A stretch of 64,000 nt of DNA from Trypanosoma brucei (GCA_000002445.1 CH464491.1:1152001-1216000); one strand, 5' to 3'. Positions 17,117-31,243 are shown, numbered from the stretch's first letter. Numbers and translations are program-made. The notes: generated by a model from the sequence alone, not told the origin.

Positions 17117-18814
17117 CTGCTTCTTCAGAGTTGTAGGCTTTTGAACATGAGTTTCTATGGATATGTCGATCCTAAATTTTCGTTGTGTTTCCGCATGGTC
17201 GGCAATCGGTTGGATATGGTGCCGCACGACGTTAACTTTCCTTCCTCAGTTGATCTTGTAACAATGCGGGCCCAGATTTATGCATATACACGCGAGTGCT
17301 GAATGCATGATCCTTTCTAATACTTATCCATCCTCCTTCACTATTATCATAAGCTTTCTCGTGAAGATGTTAGAGGCGTCAGCCATATCTCTAAGAGTTG
17401 AGAGGCGAGACCTTTTAGTGCTCATCGTGCGTGCTAAAGAGGCAAGTTAGACGGCAACTCACAAGTGCGATGGGGGCTCATTCTTTTGGATTTGAGTCCG
17501 TACGAGCCTCAAAGAGTGGAACAATGGAATGTGCGAGAGGATGCCAATAAATAAGATTGAAAGGCACCATTCCGTCAACATCCTTAAGAGTTTGAACAGG
17601 TGGAGGTTCGACAAAATGTACGATCTGGTGAACGACCGAACCCGGCAGGTTTTGTGATACCCCTCGGAGGTGTGCGTGTGTCTGTGGCTTAACATATCGA
17701 AAAAAAAATGAAGCAGCGTTGCTTAAGTGGGTACTTATCGCGATTGTGCGGGAAGTAGGGAGAGGGGATATCTGTTTCAAAAAGAAATTATGAGGTAACG
17801 GCGGAAGGTTTCCCTCTTTACCTTTAGTAGATTGTTTTAAGCATTTATGTGAAACCTTTGTGTCGAACGCGTCCCGTATTTAATTAAGTGTGTGTTGGTG
17901 TGAAGAGGGGGAAACGCCGGGTTGTTTTGAGGAAAATCAGCAGTGAACAGTTGTGCGGTGGGGGGAGGGGGATAAAAGGGAAGTTAATCAAGCGGTTTTG
18001 CTCATCCCGTCTGTAGAACTGCCGCTCTTTTCACTCAACAGCGTTCCAGTTGTTGTGCGATCGGCATAAGTCTCACGAATCAAAAAATATACATATCGCA
18101 TGTAAAACTCGACGTATGAATTGATTCGCAAAAAGAAAGTATTCCACACTAATTATTTTGGGGACATGGGAGGTGAGAAAAGGGAGGGAATAAAATGGGC
18201 CTCAGGAAATGAGGATAATGTCTCGGTATATATACGACAGTGACGAAGGATAAGTTTTGCACTTTTGATAAAGGAAGTCCAAAGAGAAGGAACAAAAAGG
18301 TAGGAAGATACGCTAAAGACATCAACAGGAACCATTTGCCAAATGGATGTGAACGAACTTAAGGACCTAAGCCAGGACAATAAATATTAACTATTAAAAA
18401 AACATCAATAAGAGTGGCGCGACTTACATAAAAATAAACCTAACAGGATAATACAGATACCTTAACCATCAGCGGAAGATGGGCTTATGCGAGGAAATTG
18501 GTGAGGTTAGCTAAGTAGCTTGATATTGTCTCTCGATGGCACGTAAGCTTATTGGGTTAAACAACAAATTGTGGATTAACACCATACGCACCGGTTGTTC
18601 CTCAATATTCCAAGTGGTAGGAAACGTTGTCGTTACATCAAGAAGACAGTTTTCCAGTTACATTTGGTACCAGCGGTGCCATCGTTCTGAGATGGTGCTA
18701 CTGAAAAGACATTTTCACTTGTAGTATAATAACTCTGGTCTCAGCAACAGTGGGGTCGTTACATATTTGCTTTCTTTTTGCTTTTGCCATAATCCTAACA
18801 AACAGCACATGATG

Positions 18815-19292
18815 CATCCAATATTATAATTTTATTATGTTTACATGATTCTCAATACTTTTTACTTGGTTGTGGAAGATGTGGAGAAGGATGTGCACCT
18901 ATCGTGGAAATTAAATGCTGTGTCGCTGAAAAGGCGTTCAACGTATCCATTTTCCCTGTCGGAACTACCTCCTCCTCCCGCTGTTGTAGCAGCGAACACC
19001 AAATACGTGTCTTGTTACATTGTTTGGGACGTGGTCCTGGTGTGTGGAATGCGCCAGTGGTGTTCACTCATCAACCAAAAGATTAGTGTCGTTGTCTGTA
19101 TCCATAGGAAGCAAGTGTGTTGCGGAAGTTCCGTTTTAAGGGATCCTTGAGTGGATGAAGGTGTGGAAGAAATGGAAAGTGCGCACTGCGTGGCTGTTTC
19201 GGTGGCGCTGGACATAATGCAGGTTAGTGTCCCTCCAAATCTTACACAGTGCTCATCAGAATCAGAAAATAAGGAGGTTTTCAGTGCACCGT
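18815..19292. repeat. copy 1 of a 478-bp direct repeat, about 98.7% identical to 26614-27091
   Basis: Direct reading of the sequence and identical ORF-track translations (MILNTFYLVVEDVEKDVHLSWKL... vs MIFNTFYLVVEDVEEDVHLSWKL...) show the repeat. There are about 6 mismatches in 478 bp. Homology begins at catccaatattataatttt and ends at aggaggttttca(g/t)tgcaccgt. Confidence 0.9.
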
Positions 19293-28158: not shown

Positions 28159-29466
28159 TTGACGTTATTTTTTTTTTCTTACGATCAGGATGTCTGTAAC
28201 AGCAAGGGCAGCAAAGGAAGAGAAGTTTTAGCGATGCTAATGAACACCCCGCTAAAGAGGGTAGAAGACATACCACCACTTCTTCGTGAACGGCTTACGA
28301 AAGCAGAGGAGAGCGGGTGGAAAATTCTTGACCTCTCGGGTTGTAAAGAAACTTTGGATGTCACGGCGCTCACTGAGGTCGGCATGCTGGAACAACTATC
28401 CCTGGAGGGTTGCACAAACTTGAGAAGAGGGCTGCGGGAAATATGCAACGGGGAAAGAACGCGCAATCTGAGGACGCTGCACTTAAGCAACCTACCCATG
28501 CTTGATGACACATGCATTAAGATATTGGGGGGAACACACCTACGGCTCGAACTGTTCACCTGCGCACACTGTAAGAACGTAACGAACGTTAGGCCCCTAG
28601 CGGAAATCAAGGCCCTGAAGAGCCTTTCGCTCGGACACTGCGTGAATATCAAGCATGGTCTGAAGGAAATTTGCGGAGGTCTGACGAATATGAGGGCTCT
28701 CTGGATCAACCACATACCGGCTGTCGACGATGCGTGCATTGCGGAGCTCGGCGCAAAAGGCGACGGTTACGAAGGCCATCTGATTTGGTTAATTTGCGAT
28801 GGATGTCTTGGGATAACGGATGTTACGGCCATTTCGGAGATCAAGACATTAAAGAGACTTTCGCTGACGGGATGCGAGAACATAACGAAGGGGCTAGAGG
28901 AGATGTGCGCCAGTGAGAAACTGCAGGACCTGCAAGACCTATGGGTGAATAACGTGAAGGCGTTCAGTGATAAGTGCCTTTTGAATCTGGAGGAAAGTCA
29001 CAGGAAGGGCGGATGGAAACTGCAGGTGCTCAGCACCAAAGACTGCTGCAGCATAACAGACGTGTCACCCCTGGGGAAGCTGGTAACGTTGAGGGTGCTA
29101 TGCCTTGACGGGTGCGTGAACATTAAACAAGGTCTGGATCATGTCATACTGTCGCTGGTCGATTTGAGGGAAGCGTACTTGGGAGGCATTGGCATAACCG
29201 ATAGGCATATTGAGCTGCTTGGTCGCCACAAAAAAATTGAACGATTACACCTCCCTTTTTCAGGGAACATTACAGATATTACTCCCTTAACGAATGTCTG
29301 GACACTGGAGGCTTTGTGCTTGTGCGGGTGTCTAAAGGCTACAAGGGGATTTGAAAAGTTTTCTACACTCTTCAGACTCAAAAAGTTGTGTGTGTGTGGT
29401 GTTTACGTCGATGCGGACACAGTCATGGCCCTAAAGGGTAAAGGAGTGGCTGTGAAGCTGTGGTAG
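28159..29466 (+). CDS. leucine-rich repeat protein (LRRP), ESAG8-like CC-type LRR (435 aa from 28159; more likely start Met at 28234)
   Basis: The same repeat architecture recurs (LSLEGCTNLRRGLREI, LSLGHCVNIKHGLKEI, LSLTGCENITKGLEEM, LCLDGCVNIKQGLDHV, ITDVSPLGKL). The first 25 codons overlap the oligo-T/polypyrimidine tract at 28161-28190, so the downstream Met is favoured. Confidence 0.7.
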   Translation: MTLFFFSYDQDVCNSKGSKGREVLAMLMNTPLKRVEDIPPLLRERLTKAEESGWKILDLSGCKETLDVTALTEVGMLEQLSLEGCTNLRRGLREICNGERTRNLRTLHLSNLPMLDDTCIKILGGTHLRLELFTCAHCKNVTNVRPLAEIKALKSLSLGHCVNIKHGLKEICGGLTNMRALWINHIPAVDDACIAELGAKGDGYEGHLIWLICDGCLGITDVTAISEIKTLKRLSLTGCENITKGLEEMCASEKLQDLQDLWVNNVKAFSDKCLLNLEESHRKGGWKLQVLSTKDCCSITDVSPLGKLVTLRVLCLDGCVNIKQGLDHVILSLVDLREAYLGGIGITDRHIELLGRHKKIERLHLPFSGNITDITPLTNVWTLEALCLCGCLKATRGFEKFSTLFRLKKLCVCGVYVDADTVMALKGKGVAVKLW

Positions 29467-31243
29467 TGCAACGCTACGACTCACGACGTGCTGCCAAACA
29501 GGCGCAGCGCCATGTTCGCTGTGATTGTCGTCGCAATGGATGAAATTGGGAAGGTAAAAGAGCAACTGGTGATGACCATTTTAGCGCGGTTGTGCTTGGC
29601 AGTATTTCTCCCTATAAATCCCTTCTTTTTGATTTTAGAGCTAAAGGTAGTGGCGGTGGTATTCGCATATACTTCTGTGTAGTGGCATTCGGGTTGTATG
29701 TGTTTTCCGAAGACTTGCCACACATACATATATATATATATAGAAACAGTGGGGGTTGGAAACCACGTGTCGCAAGCGGGTGCGTCACTGACAACATATA
29801 ACACCTCATGAGGCGGCGAGCATTTGGCTTCGTCCGGGGGCTCAACATTCGGGTTAGAAACGGTATTACATGCAAGAAAATGTGGGTAGCCAAAGGAGGA
29901 AATACGCCGGCATGCTTTCTGTCCACGATGTCGTTTTTAAGCCCCGTGATCATGGCCTCTTCAGGTCCGGCAGCCTGATAAGGATAAGCTTTGGAAGGCT
30001 TCAGCTGTCGGTTTGCGGCCCGCGCACCACAATTCCCCCCCCGCCCGCCTCCATGGCAGGGGCTGTTTGAGCGAGTAAGCAGAGCGCTCTCAGCACCCCA
30101 ATCGCAAATGGCTGTGGGTTTCCTTTCGTTTCTCTGCCGCGCCCCGTACGTAGTGTCTGGTCAAGCTGTTTTCCAAAGGCACCGCTCTTAATGGCACCGA
30201 GTATGCGCGGCACTCCAGGAGTGTGTTCCACTTGATTCCTCCGTTACTGCGGTCGTATCATTGTAATAACGGCGCTACCAAAAAAACGACAGCGCCTGTT
30301 GTGCACTGTAAGGCCAACCGCGCCTACCATACGTCAAAGGTTTCGAAGTTGGGTTGCTTAGGCATGGTTTTGCTTTGTTCCGCATTTTCCTCACCCTTTC
30401 ATCACTCATTCCACCCGGGTTTCTCCCGACAATTCGCCTCAAGTTGAGCTTCGCTGCGCTGTGGTCCATTTGCTGCTAGACAAATGTTCCGCCCGCAAAC
30501 GACCATCCAACACTTGCCGGCGCGTGCCCATCTTTCTAAACGCGGGACGCCATACAACAACGTGGCGCCTTGCATCCATTCCGGCGGCTGGTGGTGGTCC
30601 GTATCCCTCCAGTCCCCTCAAGTGTACCAAATTTAAGTGCATTGGTTACAAGTCAGCGTTACTCAAGTTTCCAAGTGGTTGTCAAGGCCATTTCCCCCGC
30701 ACCCACGATGGATCAACCAGTTTCAGCCACTTATGGCTGCCAGTTGTGCGACTTAACTGCTCCGCACCCCTTCCCGCTTTGCGGCGGTGTGAGTGATGAC
30801 GGAAGCGCCACAACACATTTAGTGGAAGGCGGCCTCGCGCTCGCCACTGTCGATTGAGTTGCCGGCATGGTGGCGTTAGGGCGGAAATGGGCCCGGGACC
30901 GCCCCCTCCCTCATGCCCTTGGGCGTGAAGACCCCTAATGTATGATTTGCTAAAGGACGTAAAGGGAAGAGAAGGGAAGAATCACCTCTTCGCAGCATCG
31001 GATAAGTTGGTGAAATCCACTGGACGCAAGGCGCCACATACCGCCGGTGCTCCTGCGCATAATGGAAAAGTGAAAAAAAAGATACCCATTTCTGACCCTC
31101 CCTAGAGTGCACACGCTTTTCCCCCGGAAAGCGCTATGGTGAAGGAAACGCGATTAACCGGGCATCACTCCCAGCACCCAGAAAGCATGTGTTAATAATA
31201 TGTGGCTCTGTAAGGCCCATCTCCGCGCGCTTCCGCACTCGCT
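29467..31243. terminator. convergent strand-switch region between the + cluster (ends 29466) and the - cluster (begins 31244); putative RNA Pol II transcription termination zone
   Basis: Gene orientation flips here. The region is GC-rich and non-repetitive with only short ORFs (under 115 aa). I found no tRNA A/B boxes. Kinetoplastid convergent SSRs are established termination sites marked by base J/H3.V. Confidence 0.55.

What the first reader, a model, noticed from the sequence alone, without database searches (positions are those of the whole stretch)
17117..31243. Accessory-like island (two ESAG8-type LRRP paralogs plus surface-protein genes) inserted at the edge of a convergent strand-switch region
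Conserved eukaryote-wide genes (CTU2-like on the left, UBL protein onward on the right) flank a 14-kb segment. That segment has unusually long non-coding stretches, two diverged short LRRPs (370 and 435 aa, far shorter than typical LRRP/ESAG8 proteins) and two predicted surface/secreted proteins. The whole segment ends in the transcription termination zone. In African trypanosomes ESAG8-like and surface gene families are usually subtelomeric or expression-site associated. A chromosome-internal copy at a strand switch suggests a lineage-specific insertion hotspot. It would probably be weakly transcribed, since it lies at the end of a polycistron.
Basis: partly seen in the sequence, partly recalled or inferred. 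Interest (0 to 1): 0.6.

Follow-up and report, generated by a model that had tools for sequence, protein, structure and literature searches.

The report
Known trypanosome accessory-gene island at inversion breakpoint
This is an already annotated Trypanosoma brucei chromosome 11 cluster of lineage-specific bloodstream-stage genes (two leucine-rich-repeat proteins, a small surface-type protein and the VSG-related gene VR27) at the end of a transcription unit, a known kind of island; here it sits where a 12-kb inversion happened, and part of it is missing in T. b. gambiense.

Summary
The window is T. brucei TREU927 chromosome 11. Between CTU2 (15470-17116, +) and a ubiquitin-like gene (31244-33106, -) lie 14.1 kb at 29% coding density (flanks 64-69%). 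They hold LRRP Tb11.02.1564 (370 aa), the T. brucei-specific signal-peptide/GPI-like protein Tb11.02.1565 (224 aa), VSG-related VR27 Tb11.02.1566 (356 aa, Pfam VSG_B 1.7e-69) and LRRP Tb11.02.1580 (410 aa). The segment ends at a convergent strand switch.

The island is lineage-specific: T. vivax, T. cruzi and T. grayi run CTU2 -> (kinase) -> DSPc -> C2CD5 -> 641 aa -> 213 aa -> UBL on one strand, and the T. theileri locus shows the same order from the kinase on. However, T. brucei has inverted the DSPc..UBL block (31244-43095). The convergent switch was therefore moved here, and the island fills the left breakpoint.

A 7,799-bp module (LRRP1, the 224-aa gene and VR27) is bounded by 478-bp direct repeats. 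It is exactly absent, leaving one repeat copy, in T. b. gambiense DAL972.

All four genes have bloodstream-enriched mRNAs at moderate levels, so they are not weakly expressed. VR genes at internal strand switches, strand switches as sites of novelty, and subspecies-variable VSG/ESAG islands are all published. I rate the finding already known and of low interest.

The parts
15470..17116 (+). CTU2 (cytoplasmic tRNA 2-thiolation protein 2) ortholog. It is the last conserved gene of the + strand polycistron.
   Evidence: Orthologs at 46-58% identity in T. congolense, T. vivax, T. grayi, T. cruzi and T. rangeli are named CTU2 by UniRef.
17117..18814 (+). Spacer downstream of CTU2 with no ORF that matches any family. 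It is present in all T. brucei assemblies read here that reach it.
   Evidence: Colinear at 98.4% identity with T. b. gambiense DAL972. No Pfam hit for the ORF tested in it.
18815..19292 (+). Left copy of the 478-bp direct repeat.
   Evidence: 98.7% identical to 26614-27091. It is not RIME/ingi-like and has no poly(A) tail.
18815..26613 (+). The 7,799-bp dispensable module: one repeat copy, LRRP1, the 224-aa gene and VR27.
   Evidence: Exactly this length is absent from T. b. gambiense DAL972, which keeps a single repeat copy and has no N runs there. It is present and colinear in T. b. equiperdum IVM-t1.
21267..22379 (+). LRRP1 = Tb11.02.1564, a 370-aa cysteine-containing LRR protein without a RING finger.
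   Evidence: Pfam LRR_4 and related LRR families. Exact match to XP_828485. It has no relative above 50% identity in 1.84 billion representatives. Identical at protein level in IVM-t1, dN = 0. 5.1-fold up in bloodstream forms.
23213..23887 (+). Tb11.02.1565, a 224-aa T. brucei-specific protein with a signal-peptide-like N-terminus, a cysteine-containing N-terminal domain, a disordered acidic/lysine-rich region and a GPI-signal-like hydrophobic tail.
   Evidence: Hydropathy of the termini. Low-confidence AF2 model with residues 134-209 disordered. No Pfam family. 91.5% protein identity between TREU927 and IVM-t1, dN/dS 0.63. 4.8-fold up in bloodstream forms.
24905..25975 (+). VR27 = Tb11.02.1566, a VSG-related protein of 356 aa: signal peptide plus a b-type VSG N-terminal domain only.
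   Evidence: Pfam VSG_B E = 1.7e-69, profile positions 1-352 of 352. Named VSG-related by NCBI and VR27 in PMC2771046. No hydrophobic C-terminus. No VSG 3'UTR 16-mer and no 70-bp repeats. 8-10-fold up in bloodstream forms.
26614..27091 (+). Right copy of the 478-bp direct repeat.
   Evidence: The two copies within a strain share alleles that differ between strains, which indicates gene conversion between them.
28234..29466 (+). LRRP2 = Tb11.02.1580, a 410-aa LRR protein without a RING finger. It is the last gene of the + strand unit and is present in every T. brucei-group assembly read here.
   Evidence: Pfam LRR. At least 99% identical in T. b. gambiense, T. equiperdum and T. b. equiperdum. 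dN/dS 0.12-0.15. 2.2-fold up in bloodstream forms.
29467..31243 (.). Convergent strand-switch region, the inferred Pol II termination zone.
   Evidence: Gene orientation changes and cumulative GC skew is maximal here. No tRNA genes and no Rfam families.
31244..43095 (-). Inverted block: UBL, 213-aa gene, 641-aa gene, C2CD5-like gene and DSPc phosphatase.
   Evidence: In T. vivax, T. cruzi and T. grayi these five genes follow CTU2 on the same strand in the order DSPc -> ... -> UBL. The T. theileri locus shows the same order from the kinase on.
43096..46301 (.). Second inversion junction: a 3.2-kb AT-rich gap without ORFs between DSPc and PSP1.
   Evidence: In T. vivax, PSP1 and the M24 peptidase converge on UBL. 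In T. brucei they lie upstream of DSPc on the same strand. GC is 0.39.

Best explanation
The segment is the lineage-specific tail of a Pol II polycistronic unit in T. brucei. It formed at the junction of an ancient inversion.

Shown:
- The ancestral order was CTU2 -> (kinase) -> DSPc -> C2CD5 -> 641 aa -> 213 aa -> UBL ->| <- PSP1 <- M24. The lineage leading to T. brucei changed it by inverting the DSPc..UBL block.
- The convergent strand switch now lies between CTU2 and UBL. PSP1 now reads into DSPc.

Inferred:
- The new CTU2-proximal junction accumulated T. brucei-specific genes, co-oriented with CTU2 and transcribed as the end of that unit.
- These are a core gene, LRRP2, and a 7.8-kb three-gene module (LRRP1, a small GPI-type surface protein and VR27) bounded by 478-bp direct repeats.
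- The repeats recombine with each other. Recombination between them most likely deleted the module in T. b. gambiense group 1 (DAL972).
- The genes are functional: the ORFs are intact and the LRRPs are under purifying selection. Their mRNAs are enriched in bloodstream forms, presumably through mRNA-level control, as is usual in trypanosomes.
- By homology to VSG N-terminal domains and to the nuclear LRR protein ESAG8, the products would be one surface or secreted VSG-like protein, one GPI-anchored small protein and two intracellular LRR scaffold proteins.
For: - Inversion. T. vivax locus L007 has CTU2(+), DSPc, C2CD5, 643 aa, 208 aa and UBL(+), then PSP1(-) and M24(-). The CTU2->...->UBL order is also seen in a second T. 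vivax assembly, two T. cruzi assemblies and T. grayi. T. theileri shows it from the kinase on. An unidentified metagenome contig has CTU2 -> MatE -> kinase on one strand. All four T. brucei-group assemblies have the inverted order.
- Module. The 478-bp repeats are 98.7% identical and 7,799 bp apart. DAL972 aligns 1-8866 to window 10424-19292 and 8389-21233 to 26614-39422. That is one repeat copy, no Ns, and CTU2 to LRRP2 shorter by about 7.8 kb.
- Absence in DAL972. The 90% clusters of LRRP1, the 224-aa protein and VR27 contain no DAL972 protein, whereas LRRP2's cluster does.
- Gene conversion. Six repeat sites have the same allele in both copies within a strain but differ between strains.
- The module is old. 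LRRP1 is below 50% identity to every other protein.
- The module is widespread. VR27 is present in Lister 427 and IVM-t1, and Tb11.02.1564 tags were reported in a T. b. gambiense transcriptome study (PMC2837033).
- Function and expression. dN/dS is 0 for LRRP1, 0.15 for LRRP2, 0.33 for VR27 and 0.63 for the 224-aa gene. All four genes are up in bloodstream forms.
Against: - T. congolense, the closest outgroup, could not be read. Its CTU2 (CCC95010) and 641-aa ortholog (CCC95014) are four accession numbers apart, which fits either orientation. The inversion is therefore dated only to after the split from T. vivax.
- The direction of the 7.8-kb change (loss in DAL972 or gain in the other strains) rests on parsimony and on the age of the genes. 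The repeats carry no informative chimerism.
- The UBL|PSP1 convergence rests on one T. vivax assembly. T. cruzi and T. theileri differ downstream of UBL.
- No inverted repeats remain at the two breakpoints.
- Termination at 29.5-31.2 kb is inferred from gene orientation only.
- Protein localisation and function were not tested here.
Confidence: 0.75

Rival explanations
1. One reading: accessory genes were inserted at the edge of an old, pre-existing convergent strand-switch region between CTU2 and UBL.
For: The island does abut a convergent switch today. Strand-switch regions are recognised sites of species-specific genes (PMC4413820; PMC3605285).
Against: In T. vivax, T. cruzi and T. grayi, CTU2 and UBL lie about 9-12 kb apart on the same strand with four or five genes between them. 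T. theileri has the same order from the kinase to UBL. The T. vivax switch lies beyond UBL, against PSP1. The CTU2/UBL convergence therefore did not exist before the inversion.
Confidence: 0.05
2. The 7.8-kb module is a recent gain in the T. b. brucei/equiperdum lineage, and DAL972 keeps the ancestral empty site. The gain could be integration of a circular or transposed segment by recombination at the 478-bp sequence, or a break repair that duplicated 478 bp.
For: A Campbell-type integration or a long target duplication gives exactly the observed structure, one copy versus two flanking copies. The repeats are 98.7% identical. VR genes are T. brucei-specific (PMC3605285).
Against: The three genes have no close paralog from which to be copied: LRRP1 is below 50% identity to everything. 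No copy of the three genes appears in the 90% clusters for DAL972. The module occurs in TREU927, IVM-t1 and Lister 427, and apparently in the T. b. gambiense strain profiled in PMC2837033. High repeat identity is explained by the gene conversion seen.
Confidence: 0.15
3. The island is a decaying, non-functional gene graveyard or an assembly artefact at a transcription end.
For: Coding density is low at 29%. Genes next to convergent switches are often among the lowest expressed (PMC2771046). T. equiperdum OVI has an assembly gap here.
Against: An independent assembly (IVM-t1) is colinear over 21 kb. All four ORFs are intact in every strain that has them, and the LRRPs show strong purifying selection. 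mRNA signals are 6-20 times background and stage-regulated. VR proteins as a class were detected on the bloodstream-form surface (PMC4587319).
Confidence: 0.05

Closest known systems
VSG-related (VR) genes of T. brucei (Marcello & Barry 2007, as cited in PMC2771046 and PMC3605285)
   Same: The 356-aa gene is an annotated member, VR27. It has a b-type VSG N-terminal domain, a chromosome-internal position at a strand switch, no 70-bp repeats and bloodstream-enriched mRNA.
   Different: Nothing substantive differs. This copy lacks any C-terminal domain or GPI signal, so it may be secreted or held on the surface in some other way.
Internal VSG/ESAG 'islands' that vary between T. b. brucei and T. 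b. gambiense (Jackson et al. 2010, PMC2854126)
   Same: It is a core-chromosome island containing a VR gene and ESAG-related (LRRP) genes. It is present in TREU927 and partly absent in DAL972.
   Different: That paper's main text does not name this locus. Here the genes are co-oriented with the neighbouring polycistron, not on the opposing strand. The indel has clean 478-bp direct-repeat boundaries rather than ingi/RIME elements.
ESAG8 and the LRRP family
   Same: The LRR architecture is the same cysteine-containing type. LRRP2 aligns to ESAG8 residues 75-461 at about 30% identity, and LRRP1 aligns at about 35% over 218 aa. SKP2/FBXL2-type LRRs are the best matches among solved structures.
   Different: There is no RING finger. 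They are about 370-410 aa against 630 aa for ESAG8, and they are not in an expression site. ESAG8 is not their nearest relative. Tb927.1.3670 and Tb927.3.580 are the published closest ESAG8 relatives.
T. brucei-specific signal-peptide/GPI gene families at strand-switch regions (Fam4-7, Fam1; Jackson et al. 2013)
   Same: The 224-aa gene is T. brucei-specific, has signal-peptide and GPI-like termini, lies near a strand switch, is bloodstream-enriched and evolves fast. Jackson et al. 2010 describe similar fast-evolving strand-switch genes.
   Different: It is single-copy here rather than tandemly arrayed. Its membership of a numbered family could not be tested.

Membership tests
VSG-related (VR) genes | VSG-type N-terminal domain | tested here: met
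   Pfam VSG_B E = 1.7e-69, covering profile positions 1-352 of 352.
VSG-related (VR) genes | Chromosome-internal location, typically at a strand switch, without upstream 70-bp repeats | tested here: met
   The gene is flanked by housekeeping genes and lies 3.5 kb from the convergent switch. No tandem repeats occur in 17-31 kb. The definition is taken from PMC2771046.
Canonical VSG | C-terminal domain plus GPI-anchor signal | tested here: not met
   The protein ends right after the N-terminal domain in a hydrophilic tail. Mean hydropathy of the last 17 residues is -0.91.
Canonical VSG | Conserved 3'UTR 16-mer TGATATATTTTAACAC | tested here: not met
   The only match has 3 mismatches, is on the wrong strand and lies upstream of the gene. 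Chance expectation is 0.57 matches.
ESAG8 | N-terminal RING zinc finger | tested here: not met
   Pfam finds zf-C3HC4 at residues 8-49 of ESAG8. It finds no RING at E <= 0.01 in either window LRRP.
ESAG8 | Leucine-rich repeats of the LRRP type | tested here: met
   LRR_4 and related families. 30-35% identity to the ESAG8 LRR region.
ESAG8 | Located in a telomeric bloodstream expression site | tested here: not met
   The window is chromosome-internal core sequence of chromosome 11, with conserved genes on both sides.
ESAG8 | Nuclear localisation signal and nuclear location | not testable with these tools
   No localisation predictor or localisation data were available here.
Subspecies-variable core VSG/ESAG island (Jackson 2010) | Non-telomeric VSG/VR/ESAG-like genes present in one subspecies and absent at the colinear site of the other | tested here: met
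   DAL972 lacks the 7,799-bp module at the colinear site, with no gap in its sequence.
ingi/RIME-mediated rearrangement | Retroposon sequence at the indel boundaries | tested here: not met
   The 478-bp repeat has no poly(A) tail, and by my recollection of the ingi/RIME 5' signature it does not resemble it. ORFs in it have no Pfam hits.

The most novel reading that the evidence does not exclude
The LRRP1 / GPI-protein / VR27 module would be a self-contained, recombinationally excisable bloodstream-stage cassette. Its pairing of an ESAG8-like LRR protein with a VSG-like protein recurs on chromosome 3, where LRRP Tb927.3.1490 sits among the VR genes Tb927.3.1470-1520, and it mirrors expression-site architecture. 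The coordinated 2-8-fold bloodstream up-regulation of all four island genes would come from stage-regulated Pol II termination in the tail of the polycistron rather than from four separate mRNA-stability signals. Loss of the module in T. b. gambiense group 1 would then have a phenotype.
Probability: 0.08. Interest if true: 0.55.

Novelty: already known. Interest (0 to 1): 0.2.

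Why it matters
The finding mainly confirms published ideas. Strand-switch regions in trypanosomes act as incubators of lineage-specific genes, often surface genes, and internal VSG/ESAG-type islands vary between T. brucei subspecies.

The locus-specific additions are modest:
- A clean example in which an inversion relocated a transcription-termination region, and the new junction then filled with bloodstream-stage genes.
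- A three-gene presence/absence polymorphism with defined 478-bp recombination substrates. It could serve as a marker, or as a natural knockout of VR27, LRRP1 and Tb11.02.1565 in T. b. gambiense DAL972.

Tried and rejected
- tRNA and Rfam scans of the whole window found nothing.
- A sensitive search for inverted repeats between the two inversion junctions found nothing.
- Pfam scans of ten ORFs in the non-coding stretches found no pseudogene remnants. tblastn with the island proteins and with the T. cruzi kinase found no degenerate copies elsewhere in the window.
- T. equiperdum OVI seemed to carry a 6.1-kb deletion, but the junction is a run of 10 Ns, so it is uninformative.
- T. congolense has no contig in the collection. 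Accession spacing is ambiguous, and none of 10 LRRP relatives looked up was the T. congolense positional homolog.
- An exact look-up of VR27 in the contig index returned nothing.
- The UBL homolog search returned only 3 hits and missed T. vivax. I solved this by searching with the 641-aa neighbour.
- The AF2 model of the 224-aa protein was too poor (pLDDT 53) for a fold search.
- My guesses at the new-style gene IDs (Tb927.11.39xx-41xx) found no papers or supplement entries. I therefore could not check whether base J / H3.V read-through papers list these genes.
- No solved-structure sequence match was found for VR27.

Full report
**Identity of the window**

Exact protein look-ups place the window on chromosome 11 of Trypanosoma brucei brucei TREU927. 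The four ORFs in the flagged segment are annotated genes:
- Tb11.02.1564: LRRP, 370 aa, 21267-22379.
- Tb11.02.1565: hypothetical, 224 aa, 23213-23887.
- Tb11.02.1566 (gene ID from PMC2771046): VSG-related protein, 356 aa, 24905-25975, called VR27 in the supplement of PMC2771046.
- Tb11.02.1580: LRRP, 410 aa from ATG 28234 to 29466.

**Check of the observation**

The left flank (15470-17116) is the CTU2 ortholog. The right flank (31244-33106, minus strand) carries a ubiquitin domain.

The 14,127 bp between them are 29% coding, against 69% and 64% in the flanks. They include a 4,150-bp and a 2,258-bp gap.

Genes are on the + strand up to 29466 and on the - strand from 31244. Cumulative GC skew peaks there. 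The segment therefore ends at a convergent strand switch.

The two LRRPs are about 26-35% identical. No extra LRR-coding sequence lies upstream in any frame, so they are truly short.

The 224-aa protein has a hydrophobic N-terminus and a hydrophobic C-terminal tail. The 356-aa protein matches Pfam VSG_B end to end at E = 1.7e-69. The only corrections are that LRRP2 is 410 aa from its ATG and that one of the 'surface proteins' is a VSG-related gene.

**Synteny**

I fetched the loci around the orthologs of CTU2, UBL and the 641-aa gene.
- T. vivax (two assemblies), T. cruzi (two assemblies) and T. grayi all show CTU2 -> DSPc phosphatase -> C2CD5-like -> 641 aa -> 213 aa -> UBL on one strand. T. 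cruzi and T. grayi have an additional kinase after CTU2. The T. theileri locus starts at the kinase and keeps the same order to UBL.
- An unidentified metagenome contig also has CTU2 -> MatE -> kinase on one strand.
- In T. brucei the same five genes lie on the opposite strand in reverse order (31244-43095).
- In the 2.9-Mb T. vivax contig, UBL(+) is followed by a convergent switch and then PSP1(-) and an M24 peptidase(-). In T. brucei, PSP1 (46302-47825) and M24 (49027-50643) lie upstream of DSPc on the minus strand.

A single inversion of the DSPc..UBL block explains both junctions. Its breakpoints are between CTU2 and DSPc and within the old UBL|PSP1 switch.

The flagged island occupies the left junction. 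A 3.2-kb AT-rich, ORF-free gap (43096-46301) occupies the right junction. No inverted repeats survive between the two.

All T. brucei-group assemblies read here share the inverted order: TREU927, DAL972, IVM-t1 and T. equiperdum OVI. T. congolense could not be resolved.

**A dispensable module inside the island**

A 478-bp direct repeat (18815-19292 and 26614-27091, 98.7% identity) brackets LRRP1, the 224-aa gene and VR27.

T. b. gambiense DAL972 is colinear on both sides but has exactly one repeat copy. It lacks the intervening 7,799-bp unit, and there are no Ns in that stretch. No DAL972 protein falls in the 90% clusters of the three genes, whereas LRRP2's cluster includes DAL972. T. b. equiperdum IVM-t1 has the full structure. 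The apparent deletion in T. equiperdum OVI is an assembly gap.

At six repeat positions the two copies share an allele within a strain but differ between strains. No left- or right-specific differences are shared across strains. The copies therefore convert each other, which means they recombine.

I favour loss in DAL972 by recombination between the repeats, for two reasons:
- LRRP1 is below 50% identity to every protein in a 1.84-billion-protein library, so the module is old.
- The module is seen in several strains.

A recombinational insertion would leave the same structure, so I cannot exclude it.

**What the genes are**

- LRRP1 and LRRP2 belong to the trypanosome LRRP family. Their nearest hits are T. 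brucei, T. vivax and T. congolense LRRPs at 30-38% identity.
- ESAG8 is one relative among many, at 30-35% identity. Its diagnostic RING finger is detectable by Pfam in ESAG8 but absent from both window proteins. Jackson et al. 2013 name Tb927.1.3670 and Tb927.3.580 as the ESAG8-like LRRPs.
- VR27 has the b-type VSG N-terminal domain only. It has no hydrophobic C-terminus, no VSG 3'UTR 16-mer and no 70-bp repeats. That matches the published definition of VR genes.
- The 224-aa protein has no Pfam family. The AF2 model is poor (pLDDT 53), with residues 134-209 disordered.
- Between TREU927 and IVM-t1, dN/dS is 0 for LRRP1, 0.15 for LRRP2, 0.33 for VR27 and 0.63 for the 224-aa gene. The 224-aa gene is also about three times more diverged at the nucleotide level than its neighbours.

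**Expression**

In the microarray study of Jensen et al. 2009 (PMC2771046), all four genes are higher in cultured bloodstream forms than in procyclic forms:

| Gene | Fold up in bloodstream forms | Signal |
|---|---|---|
| Tb11.02.1564 (LRRP1) | 5.1 | 5,086 |
| Tb11.02.1565 (224 aa) | 4.8 | 9,205 |
| Tb11.02.1566 (VR27) | 8.0 | 12,758 |
| Tb11.02.1580 (LRRP2) | 2.2 | 15,932 |

Background in that study is about 800. Veitch et al. 2010 found Tb11.02.1564 tags only in bloodstream libraries. The prediction of weak transcription is not supported. The coordinated stage regulation of four adjacent genes in the tail of the unit is noteworthy, but I could not analyse it further.

**Comparison with what is known**

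- T. brucei-specific signal-peptide/GPI families sit next to strand switches and are bloodstream-enriched.
- Strand-switch regions are described as likely incubators of novelty.
- VR proteins as a class were detected in the bloodstream surface proteome.

The finding is an annotated instance of a described phenomenon.

Independent lineage-specific surface-type genes also sit just beyond UBL in other species. T. cruzi has a trans-sialidase pseudogene, T. vivax a signal-peptide ORF, and T. theileri an ORF with a GPI-like tail. This fits the same general picture.

**Verdict**

The kind of feature is already known.

The additions from this work are the inversion origin of the strand switch and the repeat-bounded 7.8-kb presence/absence module. 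The papers I read did not describe either for this locus, but both are incremental.

Noticed in passing
window 43096-46301: A 3.2-kb ORF-free, AT-rich (GC 0.39) gap lies inside a minus-strand polycistron, between DSPc and PSP1. It corresponds to the second junction of the DSPc..UBL inversion and contains only short A/T-rich microsatellites.
   Followed up: partly
window 23213-23887 vs L006 4988-5662: The 224-aa signal-peptide/GPI-like gene differs at 19 of 224 residues between TREU927 and T. b. equiperdum IVM-t1. Nucleotide divergence is 4.3% and dN/dS is 0.63. The changes cluster in the disordered C-terminal half and the GPI-signal region. The adjacent LRRP1 is identical at protein level.
   Followed up: partly
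L009 16754-19062 (-); L007 15577-16332 (+); L011 18103-18540 (+): Different lineage-specific surface-type genes sit just downstream of UBL in other trypanosomes. T. cruzi has a frameshifted trans-sialidase, T. vivax a 251-aa signal-peptide ORF, and T. theileri an ORF with a GPI-like hydrophobic tail.
   Followed up: partly
window 21267-29466 (four genes): All four island genes are co-ordinately higher in bloodstream than in procyclic forms (2.2-8-fold) in PMC2771046. LRRP1 and the 224-aa gene fall in the same expression cluster as the chromosome 3 LRRP Tb927.3.1490, which itself lies among VR genes. This suggests a recurring VR+LRRP pairing.
   Followed up: no
L007 3926-5349 vs L008 3928-5352: The T. 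vivax DSPc ortholog is called as two ORFs (265 + 191 aa) in assembly GCA_021307395.1 but as one 474-aa gene in Y486. This is probably a frameshift error in one assembly.
   Followed up: no
L004 18125-18134: T. equiperdum OVI has a 10-N scaffold gap that hides the equivalent of window 18888-24985. The missing LRRP1, 224-aa gene and VR27 start in that annotation are therefore an assembly artefact, not a deletion.
   Followed up: yes
window 11064-13346: A 2.3-kb AT-rich intergenic stretch (GC about 0.40) contains an (AT)22 microsatellite at 11614-11657. A 31-bp AT-rich match to 5997-6027 also falls here.
   Followed up: no
L002/L009/L003/L011/L012 downstream of CTU2: A protein kinase gene follows CTU2 in T. 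cruzi and T. grayi and precedes DSPc in T. theileri. In the unidentified metagenome contig it follows CTU2 after a MatE gene. It is absent from that position in T. vivax and from the T. brucei window, so it was lost or moved in salivarian trypanosomes.
   Followed up: partly
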